NCBI RefSeq assembly: GCF_009914755.1
Contig: NC_060941.1
DNA length: 64,000 bases
From: the human T2T-CHM13v2.0 reference genome, Homo sapiens
Strand: one strand, 5' to 3'
Shown here: positions 18,701 through 28,471 of the stretch, piece by piece
Numbering within the stretch: the first letter of the stretch is position 1
How the letters are laid out: each line of letters begins with the position of its first letter
Program-made: the position numbers and the translations under genes
Notes under the pieces: generated by a model
Seen by the model: the letters and a program-made list of their open reading frames with translations, nothing else
Database searches by the model: none
What the model was told of the DNA's origin: nothing

Positions 18701-20004
18701 TGCTGTAGAGCATGGGCGAGAGAGGCGCATCGTCGTCCTGGACTTCATCCAACTCTGTGCTTGCCATGATGGGCGACAGGCGGCCACTGACTGTGCTGGC
18801 GTTAGAATTGGTGCGTGAACGGAAGTCCGTCCACGCATCCAGCTCATCACTGCTGCGTGACGTGGGGCTGCCAGACCACTTGGAGAGCTGGGAGGGACTG
18901 TCGTCAGCTGATTCGGGGGCTGTCTGCAGGGCTGCCTTCTTCTTGGCTGTGCGGCCACGGCTCTTGGTATACTTGTTGCTATTGTCCATGGAGACAGCCC
19001 GCCGCCGGGGGGCTTTTCCGCTCTTCCCCCCATCAGGGTTGATGATCCACCAAGAGCTCTTGCCAGTTCCCTCATTCTGGACCCGCATGAATCGACTATG
19101 CAGTGACAGGTTGTGCCGGATGGAGTTCTTCTAGCCGGCAGAGCTGTTGCTGTTGCCCTTATCCTTGAAGTAGGGCACGCAACGCACCATCCACTCGTAG
19201 ATCTGGGACAGAGTGAGCCGTCTGTCCGGGGAGCTCTCGATGGCGCGGGTGATCAGGTCCGCGTAGGACAGGTTTCCCCAGGCGTTCCGCCGCGACGAAC
19301 ATTTCCTCGGCTGCCCGGAGCCCCCAGCCGCCCCCGGCTGCGGCGGTGGCAGCGGTTGCTGAGGCTGCAGCAGCGCCTGTGTACCCCCGCTCAGCCCGCC
19401 CGCCGCGGTGGCTGGCCCAGACCCGGGGTCTTGCCCTCCGGGTGCCAGCACCCGGACCGAGTCCTCAAGGAGCAGCCCGGAGACCAGCGTGCGGCTCCCG
19501 CCGCCGCCGCCGATCGCCATGGCCGAGCCGGCCCGTCCCCCGCCGTCCTCGTCGTCTTCATCGTCCTCCTCCTCGGGGATCATGGAGTCGGCGGCCGTCT
19601 CCCCCGAGGGCTTGGCAGGGCTCGCTTGGAGCTCCGGCCTTTGCAGGGGCCACGTACAGGATCGCGGACGGCTCTGGGGCTCGAACTCCGGGTCCAGCTC
19701 CACTTCGAGCGGAGAAAGCGGGGCCGGGGAAGCCGGTGCCTCTGCCATCTTCGCCGCCCGCCCGCCCGCGGCTGGGGTTCTCGCGCTCTCCTCTCGCGCC
19801 GGGGCGGGGTGCAGCGGGGGAGGGACGTGGACGCCGCGAAGGCTCCGGCTCCCGGGCGCCGCCGCCGCCGCCGCCGCCTGGGGAAGCACGAGAGAAGAGA
19901 GAAGGAGAGTTGGTTATCCCCGGCCGGAGCCCCGTCCTCGGCGAGTCCTCGCCCGCTGCCGCCACCTCCCAGTCTTGCCGCGCCCGCCTCCCAGGAACAG
20001 GAGA
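12725..20004 (-). pseudogene. FOXO3B: FOXO3B: full-length processed copy of FOXO3 mRNA (5'UTR, CDS homologue 19748-17726, ~5 kb 3'UTR, poly(A))
   Basis: Three ORFs together reproduce FOXO3 (MAEAPASP...QSWVPG) with no introns. TGG>TAG at 19131-19133; +1 G at 18605-18608; AATAAA at 12763-12768; T24 tract 12723-12746; TSD CCATACTTCTT at 12714-12724 and 20005-20015. Confidence 0.97.
13816..14030 (-). mobile_element. 5'-truncated AluS inside the FOXO3B 3'UTR, TSD TAACATTTTT
   Basis: Direct repeats at 13811-13820 and 14031-14040. Confidence 0.88.
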
Positions 20005-26000: not shown

Positions 26001-28471
26001 CTTCTTTTCACTTAGACCCATTTGAATTGATTTTATCCGCTGCAACTTAAAGCTTCTTGACTAATAAAGTCTTCAAGACTAATGTAAGACAGTTGAGAAG
26101 CCAATGGAGACAGGCAAGTACATAAAGGAAGTGACTTTTACAAACACTATGAATGTGCAGTATCTACTTTTTACACTTTGGATTACAGAAGCAAAGAGAA
26201 AGGCTGATTGAGGAATCTCTGGGTTGTGGTATGCCACACACATCATGGAAAGCTCCTTTTTTCCTCCTCAACTTTTTTTTTTTTTTTTTGAGACAGTTTC
26301 ACTCTCACCCAGGCTGGAGTGCAGTAGCCCTATCTGGGCTCACTGCAACCTCTGCCTCCTGGGTTCAAGTGATTCTCATGCCTCAGTCTACGGAGTGGCT
26401 GGGATTACAAGTGCGCGCCACCACGCCCAGCTAATTTTTGTATTTTAAGTAAAGACGAGGTTTCACCATGTTGGTCAGGCTGGTCTTGAACTCCTGACCT
26501 CAGGTGATCTGCCCGCCTTAGCCTCTCAAAGTGCTGGGATTACAGGCATGAGCCACCGTGCCCAGCCCTAACTTCTTTTAATAAAAGTTTCAAACATACA
26601 AAAGTTGAAAGATGAATGCAATAATCACTGATATAGTACAATCACCGCCTAAATTCAAAAATTCTTTTTTTTTTTTTTGAGACAGAGTTTCCCTCATTGC
26701 CCAGGCCGGAATGCAGTGGTGCGATCTCGGCTTACTGCAACCTCCACCTCCTAGGTTCAAGTGATTCTCCTGCCTCAGCCTCCAGACTAGCTGGGACTAC
26801 AGGTGCGTGCCACCATGCCTGGCTAATTTTTTGTGTTTTTAGTAGAGACGAGGTTTCACCGTGTTAGCCAGGATGGTCTCAATCTCCTGACCTAGTCATC
26901 TACCTGCCTTGGCCTCCCAAAGTGCTGGAATTACGGGCATGAGCCACCACGCCCAGCCAAACATTCGTAATATTTGTCATATTTACCTTTTGGGAGAGAG
27001 GGGCCAACAATATAAAAGTAAGTTGCAGGCATGATCATACCTTAGCTTTCGTCATCTCAGAGGGCTGGATTCTAACTGTAACTCTTTAAATTACGCCTTC
27101 ATAGGCTTTCCTTTTCCAGTGTTTCTTTGAACTATGTGAGTATTTATTATTTTTACAATCACTTCAGCATTTAAGCGCTTTCTTAGATTGCCACTTAAAG
27201 TCACATACATGCTGTTTCCTCTAGAGAAACAAGTTTTAAGAGGTATGTGCCACATTATATTTAAAATAGTTTCTCACATTACCAAGCACAGAAATGAGCA
27301 TAGGAGGCTAAGAAAGGGAAATGCTGCTTACCTATCTGTTGAGGGACAATAAACACTAAATAGGGAAGAAATCCATCCAGTGTTATAAGTAGAAAACATT
27401 TTCTTCTGAGTCCATTAGTCTCCTGACTAGTCTCTTAGATTTAGAACTCAGCTCTGCAGATGGGCTTTAGTGGATAAAGAAACTCCACATCACAAAGAAG
27501 GGAGTGCATCTGTACTCTAAGAAACAAGGTGTAATTCCAATAATCAGCAGACTCACTCACCTGGGATCTGGCCGTGAGGCGCAGAGCAGCCACTTCTCCC
27601 TCTTCTGTGCTCTTCTCTTGGAAATGGGGAGAATCCTGGGAAGACAGAACTAACGACAAGAAAGCAGTAATGATGAGACCTAGGCTTAATGTGCCACTCA
27701 GATTTAAAGTCTAAAAACCGCTTCAACATACTATATGTGCTGCCTACAAACACTGAGACTGAAGGTACCCCCAAAACAACCGACCTCCTCCCAGGACCCT
27801 CTTCCCGGGATATGCGGGAATATTGCTACTCTGGGCTCGAATTCAGTTGCTATAATCATAACACATTCTGTAAGATGGCATCCTCTGATCTAGAAATTAG
27901 AATATGTCAGTAAATTTCCCAGCTTAATCTATACTCGTTGGTTCTCACTCTGAAAGCTTATTTATAATGTAGATTGCTGGACCCCACCTCAAAGTAATAA
28001 GCATTAGTTGAGCCTGGGGTACAATCCAGAAATCTAACAACCACCCCAGGGGGAATTCTGGTGTAGGAGGTCACAGCACAACCTTCACGAAACTGGTCAG
28101 GTAGAATGGAAGTCAGTCATTAACTACTACGCCTGTTTTCTCCTATGTAAAACAAAACATTTTTGACAACCAAAGAGGTGAATTCTTGCCATAGAAGTTA
28201 ACATTTCACTCACATTTTGGGGGTAGCTTTGAAGGGTCCACTGTGTGCCCAGCTGCCATGGAAAGGGCGGTGCTCCCATACCAAGCTCTTCAGTCTCACT
28301 TAAAAAGCCCATCCATCCCCAAGACAATGGAGACAGCCAGCCAAGAGCCACCTCCCCTGAGCCAACCGTTTTCCCTTCAGGAGCAGGAATTTCGTCCTTC
28401 CACGCTACAAGTTCAACACGTCCGCAATTCTCACCTCCTTTCTCAGGCATTTCAGCCAAATCTGTCTCCAT
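19131..28471 (-). CDS. FOXO3B: Predicted chimeric ZNF286B::FOXO3B CDS, join(28471-28435, 27649-27561, 19877-19131), 290 aa
   Basis: Acceptor ctctccttctctcttctctcgtgcttccccag|GCG at 19877 is phase 0 and matches the phase-0 donor at 27561. Product is 42 aa ZNF286B + 43 aa from the FOXO3 5'UTR + FOXO3 1-205. Confidence 0.75.
21167..21461 (+). mobile_element. AluY-like
   Basis: Alu consensus with A tail. Confidence 0.9.
23524..23823 (-). mobile_element. AluS with TSD GAGAATAAAAGGG, inside old L1M fragments (~21950-24082)
   Basis: Reverse Alu consensus; flanks are A-rich with L1 3'-end motifs (TGCTGCTGGGAATGTAATTGGTACAA). Confidence 0.85.
24083..24752 (+). pseudogene. Processed UBE2S pseudogene lacking the first ~57 codons (UBE2SP2-like)
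   Basis: [30 protein letters not shown]...[12 protein letters not shown] (24084-24581), intronless; AATAAA 24717-24722; poly(A) 24734-24752. Confidence 0.93.
26272..26958 (-). mobile_element. Two AluS elements (26272-26568; 26664-26958)
   Basis: Reverse Alu consensus. Confidence 0.9.
27561..27649 (-). CDS. ZNF286B: ZNF286B 89-nt coding exon, (V)[29 protein letters not shown]
   Basis: Acceptor tttcttgtcgttag|TTCTG, donor CCCAG|GTGAGT; phase 1 in, phase 0 out; peptide matches the recalled ZNF286 N-terminus. Confidence 0.9.
28435..28471 (-). CDS. ZNF286B: ZNF286B first coding segment, [12 protein letters not shown] (ATG at 28471)
   Basis: Good Kozak context (gtgatcATGG); donor GGAG|GTGAGA after 37 nt. 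Candidate acceptors for this exon at 28753 or 28666. Confidence 0.9.

What the first reader, a model, noticed from the sequence alone, without database searches (positions are those of the whole stretch)
19131..28471. Natural gene trap: ZNF286B exons splice in frame into the FOXO3 retrocopy, giving a 290-aa chimeric protein
Seen: the retrocopy is in the host's orientation and carries a long pyrimidine tract plus AG (ctctccttctctcttctctcgtgcttccccag|GCG, exon start 19877). Host exons 28471-28435 (37 nt) and 27649-27561 (89 nt) sum to 42 codons and end in phase 0. The frame then stays open for 248 codons: 43 from former FOXO3 5'UTR ([15 protein letters not shown]...RAAK) and FOXO3 1-205, ending at TAG. 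Knowledge: this keeps the AKT/14-3-3 motif RPRSCTWP (T32) but stops just before the forkhead recognition helix (NSIRHNLSL), the NLS and the transactivation domain. Inference: a non-DNA-binding decoy for AKT/14-3-3 expressed from the ZNF286B promoter. I recall FOXO3B being reported as protein-coding, so check novelty; the architecture is still fully derivable from this sequence.
Basis: partly seen in the sequence, partly recalled or inferred. Interest (0 to 1): 0.85.

Follow-up and report, generated by a model that had tools for sequence, protein, structure and literature searches.

The report
Known FOXO3B chimeric retrogene, confirmed
This is the already annotated and published human FOXO3B gene, in which the first coding exons of the dead zinc-finger gene ZNF286B splice into an inserted FOXO3 retrocopy and encode a 290-residue, truncated FOXO3-like protein; the sequence facts are right but not new.

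Summary
Exons of 37, 89 and 747 nt have GT/AG borders. They give an 873-nt frame, 290 aa and a TAG stop. That is 42 host codons, 43 codons from former FOXO3 5'UTR and FOXO3 residues 1-205. RPRSCTWP is kept and the forkhead is cut before NSIRHNLSL.

This CDS is identical to RefSeq FOXO3B (hub table). Reviews citing Santo & Paik 2018 describe the protein as having an 85-aa N-terminal extension, a truncated forkhead, no DNA binding and a cytosolic location.

- The retrocopy spans window 20004..12725 (7,280 bp). It has an 11-bp target-site duplication, a poly(A) tail and two lost introns. The ZNF286A paralogue shows a clean empty site.
- The pyrimidine tract and AG are inherited from FOXO3 itself.
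- ZNF286B lacks its KRAB exons through a 4.2-kb deletion, so the chimera is the only long frame reachable from the host ATG.
- Substitutions in the surviving frame look neutral: 5 nonsynonymous, 2 synonymous, 1 nonsense.

The AKT/14-3-3 decoy idea remains untested. Verdict: real, already known, low interest.

The parts
29024..29134 (-). Non-coding first exon shared by ZNF286B and FOXO3B transcripts; holds three upstream ATGs (uORFs of 26, 68 and 14 codons)
   Evidence: Exon coordinates from the hub's RefSeq table; uATGs. The promoter region is 98.8% identical to the ZNF286A locus.
28435..28666 (-). Second exon; coding starts at ATG 28471 (37 coding nt) and is followed by a GT donor
   Evidence: The coding part is identical to the ZNF286A copy.
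27561..27649 (-). 89-nt host exon; AG before it, GTGAGT after it; ends in phase 0 after codon 42
   Evidence: In a local alignment, 88 of its 89 nt match the ZNF286A copy exactly. The first base fell outside the alignment, so it appears to differ; the ZNF286A base was not read.
19878..19907 (-). 3' splice site used by the chimera: pyrimidine tract (18 of 20 pyrimidines at -23..-4) plus CAG. It lies inside the retrocopy and is inherited from FOXO3.
   Evidence: The parent carries the same tract and CAG|G and differs at 2 bases (TTTGG in the parent, TCTCG here).
19749..19877 (-). 43 codons from former FOXO3 5'UTR. The parent has 41 codons, also open in this frame; here there are 6 extra nt of GCG repeat (2 Ala) and one Ala-to-Thr change.
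19134..19748 (-). FOXO3-derived codons 1-205, including the RPRSCTWP motif and the first half of the forkhead domain
19131..19133 (-). Stop codon TAG. The parent has TGG (Trp206); a G-to-A change at 19132, 5 nt before the former exon 2/3 junction.
12725..20004 (-). Whole FOXO3 retrocopy, 7,280 bp. It corresponds to three blocks on chr6 (FOXO3 exons 2, 3 and 4); the two introns between them (about 102 kb and 15 kb) are absent.
20005..20015 (-). 5' copy of the target-site duplication AAGAAGTATGG
   Evidence: The word occurs at one place (L009 position 2590), at the empty site of the ZNF286A paralogue.
12714..12724 (-). 3' copy of the target-site duplication
12725..12746 (-). Poly(A) tail of the retrocopy (about 22 A). 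The AATAAA signal lies at 12768-12763.
14453..14478 (-). ATTAAA at 14473, 20 nt before the RefSeq 3' end of FOXO3B (14453): an internal poly(A) site
   Evidence: transcript end from the hub table
17692..19130 (-). Dead remainder of the FOXO3 coding region and exon 3: second half of the forkhead, then a 1-nt insertion at 18608 (parent codon 381) that shifts the frame, then the KIX-binding and transactivation domains
24080..24083 (-). Breakpoint of a 4.2-kb deletion relative to ZNF286A. It removed the KRAB-A and KRAB-B exons of the host and cut UBE2SP2.
5255..10052 (-). Zinc-finger exon of ZNF286B, the host exon that the trap bypasses. Spliced directly to 27561, the frame stops after 65 aa. The finger frame (10 C2H2 motifs, 429 codons) is out of phase.
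   Evidence: exon coordinates from the hub table

Best explanation
The finding is the known human gene FOXO3B.

Origin. A near full-length FOXO3 mRNA (exons 2-4 of the parent on chr6) was copied by L1-type target-primed reverse transcription. It inserted, in the sense orientation, into the long intron of ZNF286B. This happened after ZNF286B arose as a duplicate of ZNF286A.

Splicing. The copy brought a strong 3' splice site that already exists in the FOXO3 5' region. Transcripts from the duplicated ZNF286 promoter therefore splice from the 89-nt host exon (phase 0) into the copy at 19877.

Translation. It starts at the host ATG and reads 42 host codons. It then reads 43 codons of former 5'UTR, which happen to be open and in phase, and then FOXO3 codons 1-205. 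It stops at a TGG-to-TAG mutation, and the transcript ends at poly(A) signals inside the copy. Because the host has lost its KRAB exons, this chimera is the only long frame reachable from the host ATG.

Product. The protein keeps the N-terminal FOXO3 region with the T32 kinase/14-3-3 motif and helices H1-H2 of the forkhead. It lacks the recognition helix, the KIX-binding region and the transactivation domain, and by recalled positions the nuclear localisation signal. So it cannot act as a transcription factor and stays in the cytosol.

Function. My best guess, an inference at about 55%, is that it is a young gene evolving close to neutrally, with no selected protein function yet.

Shown here: anatomy, origin and domain content. 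Taken from RefSeq and the literature: splicing, translation and localisation. Inferred: L1 mechanism, order of events and neutrality.
For: CDS and signals: equal to the RefSeq FOXO3B CDS in the hub table.

Parent: the own-genome searches find a 99% match at chr6:109.74 Mb and further 98-99% blocks at chr6:109.84 and 109.86 Mb. Joining the parental exons at their GT/AG borders gives a 673-aa frame.

Retrocopy hallmarks:
- the 11-bp duplication AAGAAGTATGG at both ends;
- about 22 A after an AATAAA signal;
- both introns absent;
- a single copy of the 11-mer at the uninterrupted site in the ZNF286A paralogue.

Acceptor: it is present in the parent. It has 18 of 20 pyrimidines, against 14 of 20 for the zinc-finger exon acceptor.

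Host gene: 4.2 kb of the ZNF286A region is missing here. It carries a KRAB-A box (VTFKDVAMDFTPEEW...) and a KRAB-B-like frame. The splice 27561->10052 gives only 65 aa.

Domains: the Forkhead profile is matched at 4-42 of 88 in the protein and 48-83 of 88 after the stop. FOXO_KIX_bdg and FOXO-TAD occur only in the dead part. The best PDB match is the FOXO3 DNA-binding domain 2k86, aligned only up to ...NSSAG.

Literature, passages only: PMC7140813, PMC10611805 and PMC6468785 report the protein, its 85-aa extension, its lack of DNA binding and its cytosolic location, citing Santo & Paik 2018.

Neutrality: in codons 1-206 there are 5 nonsynonymous, 2 synonymous and 1 nonsense difference from the parent (dN 0.011, dS 0.0125). 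The dead part has 7 nonsynonymous and 4 synonymous differences. Fisher p = 1.0 for the ratios and 0.32 for the rates.
Against: - I could not read the primary paper (Santo & Paik 2018 is not held). Protein-level evidence is therefore second-hand.
- No RNA or peptide data can be examined with these tools, so the 27561->19877 junction rests on the RefSeq model.
- The neutrality test has almost no power: 8 and 11 differences. It cannot exclude weak constraint or a function carried by a short motif.
- The direction of each change is assumed (the parent taken as conserved), because no outgroup was available.
- The retrocopy differs from the parent at 87 of 7,215 aligned sites (1.21%). ZNF286A and ZNF286B differ at 271 of 20,530 (1.32%, five collinear blocks, two of which overlap by 42 nt). 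That is at the high end for the human-only origin claimed in print.
- Three upstream ATGs in exon 1 may limit translation.
Confidence: 0.9

Rival explanations
1. The cytosolic FOXO3B protein is phosphorylated at the retained T32-type site (T117 of the chimera), binds 14-3-3 and/or occupies AKT, and so acts as a decoy that modulates FOXO3 signalling.
For: - RPRSCTWP is intact at residues 112-119, and no difference from the parent lies in that part. The nearest differences are at codons 11 and 53.
- The motif fits the AKT consensus RxRxxS/T and the 14-3-3 mode-I form RSxpS/TxP (recalled consensus, not tested).
- The protein is reported as cytosolic, where 14-3-3 is abundant (passages).
- The fragment is predicted to be mostly unstructured and therefore accessible. 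The single-sequence AlphaFold2 model has mean pLDDT 51.5 and shows only two helices, at 205-215 and 223-243 of the 248-aa exon product. This is weak evidence.
Against: - The second 14-3-3 anchor that I recall for FOXO3 (S253) and the third AKT site (S315) lie beyond the stop. The stop position is shown; the site positions are recalled.
- There is no sign of constraint on the frame.
- A decoy must be abundant relative to its targets, and nothing here speaks to abundance. Three uATGs precede the start codon.
- A search for FOXO3B + 14-3-3 + human listed 8 papers. I read the FOXO3B passages of 3 of them and none states such a role. The primary paper was not seen.
Confidence: 0.12
2. The locus acts mainly as RNA. 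The FOXO3B transcript carries several kilobases that are 98-99% identical to the FOXO3 mRNA, so it competes for the same microRNAs (a sponge). The protein would be a by-product.
For: - The RefSeq last exon (19877-14453) carries the former coding region and much of the FOXO3 3'UTR at 98.2-99.2% identity.
- A review passage states that a Foxo3 pseudogene (Foxo3P) and circ-Foxo3 compete with Foxo3 for eight named microRNAs, citing Yang et al. 2016 (PMC6124385). I did not see the primary paper.
Against: - I could not check whether the pseudogene used in that work is this human locus.
- Sponge effects depend on the relative amounts of the RNAs, which are unknown here.
- The RefSeq transcript ends at 14453, so it lacks the last 1.7 kb of the FOXO3 3'UTR copy.
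- An RNA role does not exclude the protein reported in print.
Confidence: 0.15
3. The frame is annotated but not meaningfully translated. The chimera would be a transcribed processed pseudogene whose open frame is a leftover of the parent.
For: - The open frame is expected by chance once the phase matches. The wrong phases stay open for 98 and 105 codons, and the parental 5'UTR frame is open too.
- Substitutions look neutral.
- There are three uATGs.
- ZNF286B is itself listed as a transcribed pseudogene (hub table).
Against: - RefSeq lists FOXO3B as protein-coding (hub table).
- Three reviews report a protein product from knockout work by Santo & Paik 2018.
- The start codon has a strong context, A at -3 and G at +4.
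- The stop lies in the last exon, so no exon junction follows it (hub table).
Confidence: 0.05

Closest known systems
FOXO3B (RefSeq NM_001368135.1; Santo & Paik 2018, Gene 673:95)
   Same: It is the same object. The coding coordinates are identical (hub table). The described features match: an 85-aa extension, a stop in mid-forkhead, 873 nt and 290 aa.
   Different: Nothing in the object itself. I could not check whether the primary paper already gives these, because it is not held.
FOXO3 (parent gene, chr6; 673 aa)
   Same: - Residues 86-290 of the chimera equal FOXO3 1-205 except for G86R, G89V, A98V, K176R and D199N (parent numbering).
- The T32 motif and forkhead helices H1-H2 are retained.
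   Different: - No recognition helix, wings, KIX-binding region or transactivation domain.
- An N-terminal extension of 85 residues.
- A different promoter.
FOXO3A-Short (primate-specific FOXO3 isoform; PMC10014046, passages)
   Same: It is also a truncated FOXO3-related protein with only part of the forkhead domain.
   Different: It is the complementary piece. FOXO3A-Short starts in intron 2 and carries exon 3 (the C-terminal part), and is described as constitutively nuclear. FOXO3B carries only the exon 2 part and is described as cytosolic.
Chimeric retrogenes formed by exon capture in a host intron (recalled examples: jingwei in Drosophila, TRIM5-CypA in monkeys) and laboratory gene-trap cassettes
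   Same: A retrocopy sits in sense orientation in an intron. It is spliced to upstream host exons, uses the host promoter and start codon, and ends transcription at its own poly(A) signal.
   Different: Here the captured part is itself truncated by a nonsense mutation, and the host gene is already dead (KRAB exons deleted). So the trap does not disable a working gene. The named examples are recalled, not checked here.
Pseudogene microRNA sponges (PTENP1 type, recalled; Foxo3P as cited in PMC6124385)
   Same: A transcribed copy with about 98-99% identity to the parent mRNA, including much of the 3'UTR.
   Different: This locus also has a reported protein product. Sponge activity of this particular human transcript was not checked.

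Membership tests
L1-mediated processed retrocopy | Introns of the parent are absent, with exon-exon joins at the parental GT/AG borders | tested here: met
   Three chr6 blocks about 102 kb and 15 kb apart are contiguous in the window. The parental borders AAG|gtgcgt...cag|AAC and CAG|gtcagt...tag|ACC are joined exactly.
L1-mediated processed retrocopy | Poly(A) tail after the parental polyadenylation signal | tested here: met
   AATAAA at 12768-12763, then about 22 A at 12746-12725.
L1-mediated processed retrocopy | Target-site duplication flanking the insert, and an empty site elsewhere | tested here: met
   AAGAAGTATGG lies at 20015-20005 and at 12724-12714. It is found at one place (L009 position 2590) in the ZNF286A paralogue, where the two flanks abut. 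The cut site reads TCTT/AA on the opposite strand, close to the recalled L1 endonuclease preference TTTT/AA (inference).
Chimeric (host-fused) retrogene / natural gene trap | Sense orientation in a host intron, with a usable acceptor, matching phase, and its own stop and poly(A) signal | tested here: met
   The host exon ends in phase 0, and the acceptor is CAG|G with 18 of 20 pyrimidines.
Chimeric (host-fused) retrogene / natural gene trap | Transcripts that actually join host exons to the retrocopy | not testable with these tools
   This rests on RefSeq model NM_001368135.1 (hub table) and on second-hand literature. No RNA data are available here.
Forkhead (winged-helix) DNA-binding domain, Pfam PF00250 | Complete domain including recognition helix H3 | tested here: not met
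   The hit is above the cut-off (40.8 against 27 bits) but covers only profile positions 4-42 of 88. Positions 48-83 lie after the stop. The alignment to the FOXO3 structure 2k86 ends at ...NSSAG.
FOXO transcription factors | KIX-binding CR2 region and C-terminal transactivation domain, together with the three AKT sites and the nuclear localisation signal | tested here: not met
   FOXO_KIX_bdg and FOXO-TAD are found only in the frameshifted dead part. Only the first AKT-type motif, RPRSCTWP, lies in the protein. The positions of the other sites and of the localisation signal are recalled; they lie after the stop.
KRAB zinc-finger protein (host ZNF286 family) | KRAB-A/B exons and a zinc-finger array in one frame from the start codon | tested here: not met
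   The KRAB-bearing 4.2 kb of the ZNF286A region is absent. The finger frame (10 C2H2 motifs) is out of phase with the start.

The most novel reading that the evidence does not exclude
There are two linked ideas that the evidence does not exclude.

(1) The acceptor used by FOXO3B may be FOXO3's own exon-2 3' splice site. It would have been carried into the retrocopy because the template RNA still held the last 129 nt upstream of that site, through a retained intron 1 or an internal start site. One later change (G to C at 19890) would then have made the tract more pyrimidine-rich.

(2) The resulting human-lineage protein may act as a cytosolic sink for AKT and/or 14-3-3 through its T32-type motif. 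That would give humans an extra, promoter-independent brake or buffer on FOXO3 signalling.
Probability: 0.1. Interest if true: 0.55.

Novelty: already known. Interest (0 to 1): 0.1.

Why it matters
FOXO3 is one of the few genes repeatedly linked to human longevity. FOXO3B is 98-99% identical to its exons, so it confounds genotyping, expression measurement and knockout of FOXO3 (passages in PMC5727304, and PMC7200799). It is also a clean textbook case of how a new protein-coding gene can arise. The steps were a segmental duplication, loss of the host's own exons, insertion of a retrocopy that brings its own splice acceptor, and a chance in-phase frame. None of this is new in kind. A demonstrated function for the protein, decoy or other, would matter for human-specific FOXO biology, but nothing here shows one.

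Tried and rejected
- Primary papers: Santo & Paik 2018 (PMC6064391 and its DOI) and Flachsbart 2013 (PMC3548564) are not held. What they show is known to me only through citing papers.
- A search for a recalled UniProt accession of the protein found 0 papers.
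- A hair-follicle proteome paper lists only the old entry 'Putative zinc finger protein 286B'. That says nothing about the chimera.
- A paper on human-specific retrocopies (PMC5010893) mentions neither FOXO3 nor ZNF286.
- I first thought the stop might sit exactly on the old exon junction, because the first match ended 2 nt short of it. The parental sequence shows the Trp codon wholly inside exon 2, 3 nt before its end, so this was rejected.
- My first classification of differences in the dead coding part used a start that was off by 2 nt and gave a false early stop. It was redone correctly.
- I tried to settle whether the parental AG is FOXO3's native exon-2 acceptor from text. The passages say only that FOXO3 has four exons, with exons 2 and 3 coding. 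No exon sizes or coordinates were found, so this stays open.
- The single-sequence structure prediction gave a low-confidence model. I use it only as a weak hint of disorder and ran no fold search on it.
- No complex prediction was run. 14-3-3 binding depends on phosphorylation, which that tool does not model.
- Supplementary files of the papers were not opened.

Full report
**Observation.**
- The ATG at 28471 sits in the context GTGATCATGG.
- The 37 coding nt to 28435 are followed by GT.
- The 89-nt exon 27649-27561 lies between AG and GTGAGT.
- The last exon starts at 19877, after ctccttctctcttctctcgtgcttccccAG.
- The three pieces sum to 873 nt and give 290 aa, with one stop, TAG, at 19133-19131.
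- The host part is exactly 42 codons. The FOXO3-type Met is residue 86, so 43 codons come from former 5'UTR and 205 from the FOXO3 coding region.
- RPRSCTWP starts at residue 112.
- The residues after the stop read [11 protein letters not shown].

These coordinates are the coding parts of RefSeq FOXO3B in the hub's table.

**Is the open frame more than chance?**
The last exon is 73% G+C. The two wrong phases after the acceptor still stay open for 98 and 105 codons. The same upstream frame is open in the parental 5'UTR as well (41 codons). An in-frame fusion therefore needed little beyond the 1-in-3 chance of a matching phase. The feature is real, but its existence alone is no evidence of selection.

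**What the insert is.**
The window's own assembly could be searched. The last-exon coding part matches chr6:109.74 Mb at 99%. The rest matches two further chr6 blocks at 98-99%. The parental borders read AAG|gtgcgt...cag|AAC and CAG|gtcagt...tag|ACC, and in the window they are joined exactly. Joining the parental pieces gives a 673-aa frame, so the parent is FOXO3. The three blocks are its exons 2, 3 and 4; passages in PMC5727304 say it has four exons, with exons 2 and 3 coding and exon 4 non-coding.

The flank upstream of the insert matches chr17:15.62 Mb at 98%, which is the ZNF286A paralogue. There the two flanks abut. The 11-mer AAGAAGTATGG is found at one place there, while in the window it lies at 20015-20005 and again at 12724-12714. 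Between the two copies lie 7,280 bp. They end in AATAAA (12768-12763) and about 22 A.

Lost introns, a poly(A) tail, a target-site duplication and an empty site make this a standard L1-type retrocopy. It inserted into ZNF286B after the ZNF286A/ZNF286B duplication. The L1 mechanism itself is inferred from these hallmarks.

**Where the acceptor comes from.**
The insert starts 129 nt upstream of the acceptor, and those 129 nt are contiguous with the rest on chr6. The parent carries the same pyrimidine tract and CAG|G. It differs at two bases (TTTGG in the parent, TCTCG here), one of which replaces a purine by a pyrimidine. The GCG repeat just after the AG is 6 nt longer here, adding two Ala codons. 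So the retrocopy did not evolve an acceptor; it brought one along. Whether that AG is FOXO3's native exon-2 acceptor could not be settled from the passages available. The acceptor has 18 of 20 pyrimidines at -23..-4. The zinc-finger exon acceptor at 10052 has 14 of 20.

**The host.**
The window is collinear with the ZNF286A region at 98-99% identity, with two exceptions: the insert, and 4.2 kb present only in ZNF286A (chr17:15,610,970-15,615,190). That piece holds a KRAB-A box ([38 protein letters not shown]) and a KRAB-B-like frame. ZNF286B has therefore lost its KRAB exons. The annotated ZNF286B splice 27561->10052 stops after 65 aa. The finger frame (429 codons, 10 C2H2 motifs) is out of phase with it. 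The chimera is thus the only long frame reachable from the host ATG.

The first exon holds three upstream ATGs. An ATTAAA at 14473 precedes the RefSeq 3' end at 14453 by 20 nt.

**The product.**
- Pfam finds Forkhead at profile positions 4-42 of 88 in the protein (40.8 bits, cut-off 27).
- Positions 48-83 lie right after the stop. FOXO_KIX_bdg and FOXO-TAD lie further on, in a part that a 1-nt insertion at 18608 has frameshifted.
- The best solved relative is the FOXO3 DNA-binding domain 2k86, aligned only up to ...NSSAG.
- A single-sequence AlphaFold2 model of the 248 aa of the last exon has mean pLDDT 51.5. It shows only two helices, at 205-215 and 223-243. This is weak evidence that the rest is unstructured.

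Against the parent, codons 1-206 differ at 8 sites: L11 and A53 are synonymous; G86R, G89V, A98V, K176R and D199N are nonsynonymous; and W206 is changed to a stop.

**Selection.**
In the live part dN is 0.011 and dS is 0.0125. The dead part has 7 nonsynonymous and 4 synonymous differences. Neither the ratios (Fisher p = 1.0) nor the rates (8 of 618 against 11 of 1,398, p = 0.32) differ. The counts are far too small to exclude weak constraint, and the direction of each change is assumed.

**Age.**
The retrocopy differs from the parent at 87 of 7,215 aligned sites (1.21%). ZNF286A and ZNF286B differ at 271 of 20,530 sites (1.32%, five blocks with a 42-nt overlap between two of them). The order is consistent with duplication first and insertion second. 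Both values are at the high end for the human-only origin stated in print. PMC3126818 reports a ZNF286B-specific PCR product in human only, among six primates. PMC7200799 says FOXO3B exists 'only in the human genome', citing Santo & Paik. I could not test this.

**What is known.**
- Passages in PMC7140813 describe the FOXO3B protein with an 85-aa N-terminal extension, a stop in mid-forkhead and a permanently cytoplasmic location.
- PMC10611805 says it lacks DNA-binding activity and is cytosolic, and its table shows the numbers 873 and 290.
- PMC6468785 calls it a true gene with a protein product.
- All three cite Santo & Paik 2018, which I could not read.
- PMC10726900 states that its function is unknown.
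- An RNA-sponge role for a Foxo3 pseudogene is cited in PMC6124385.

So the architecture is already annotated and published.

**Function.**
The other AKT/14-3-3 sites that I recall for FOXO3 (S253, S315) lie after the stop. No passage I read proposes a decoy role: one search listed 8 papers, and I read the FOXO3B passages of 3 of them. I put the decoy at about 12%, an RNA-level role at about 15%, and no selected function at about 55%.

**Verdict.**
The structural interpretation is supported but already known. The functional interpretation is untested.

Noticed in passing
window 24080-24083 (breakpoint); ZNF286A side L020 1971-6191 = chr17:15,610,970-15,615,190: ZNF286B lacks 4.2 kb that ZNF286A has. 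That piece carries the KRAB-A and KRAB-B-like exons and part of a UBE2S retrocopy, so the annotated UBE2SP2 (24083-24733) is cut at the deletion breakpoint.
   Followed up: partly
window 5255-10052 (-): The ZNF286B zinc-finger exon is still open for 429 codons with 10 C2H2 motifs. That frame is not the one reached by the annotated splice from the host ATG, which stops after 65 aa.
   Followed up: partly
L020 1472-2332 (-), chr17:15.61 Mb (ZNF286A intron): The UBE2S retrocopy in the ZNF286A intron shows a 286-codon stop-to-stop frame holding a full-looking UBE2S-like sequence starting MNSNVEKLPPHIIRLVYKEV.... Whether it is expressed or intact relative to UBE2S was not checked.
   Followed up: no
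window 17692/17693 (former exon 3/4 junction); parent L016/L015: FOXO3 has an intron in its 3'UTR only 34 nt after the stop codon: exon 3 is 1,435 nt and the frame with its stop takes 1,401 nt. Two search listings (abstracts only) deal with stop-proximal 3'UTR introns in zebrafish; they matched the search term foxo3b (57 and 65 occurrences), but I did not read the passages.
   Followed up: no
window 19873-19878 region (GCG repeat after the acceptor): The GCG/Ala repeat is 6 nt longer than in FOXO3, 7 Ala against 5. Such repeats are often length-polymorphic, so the 290-aa length may vary between people. Not checked.
   Followed up: no
whole retrocopy and its flanks (window 3289-31000): Divergence is 1.21% (retrocopy against FOXO3) and 1.32% (ZNF286B against ZNF286A). 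That is about the human-chimpanzee level (recalled as about 1.2%), which sits uneasily with the published human-only origin based on one paralogue-specific PCR.
   Followed up: partly
window 29024-29134 (-): There are three upstream ATGs in the shared first exon, giving uORFs of 26, 68 and 14 codons. One of the ATGs is in the same phase as the main start codon, but its uORF ends before it.
   Followed up: no
own genome: chr1:41.23 Mb, chr13:39.88 Mb, chrX:69.53 Mb, chr5:181.66 Mb: Weaker matches (74-88% identity over about 160 nt of the forkhead part) probably mark the paralogues FOXO6, FOXO1 and FOXO4 and a FOXO1-like copy on chr5. These names are recalled from chromosome positions, not tested. 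No second FOXO3 retrocopy was found.
   Followed up: no
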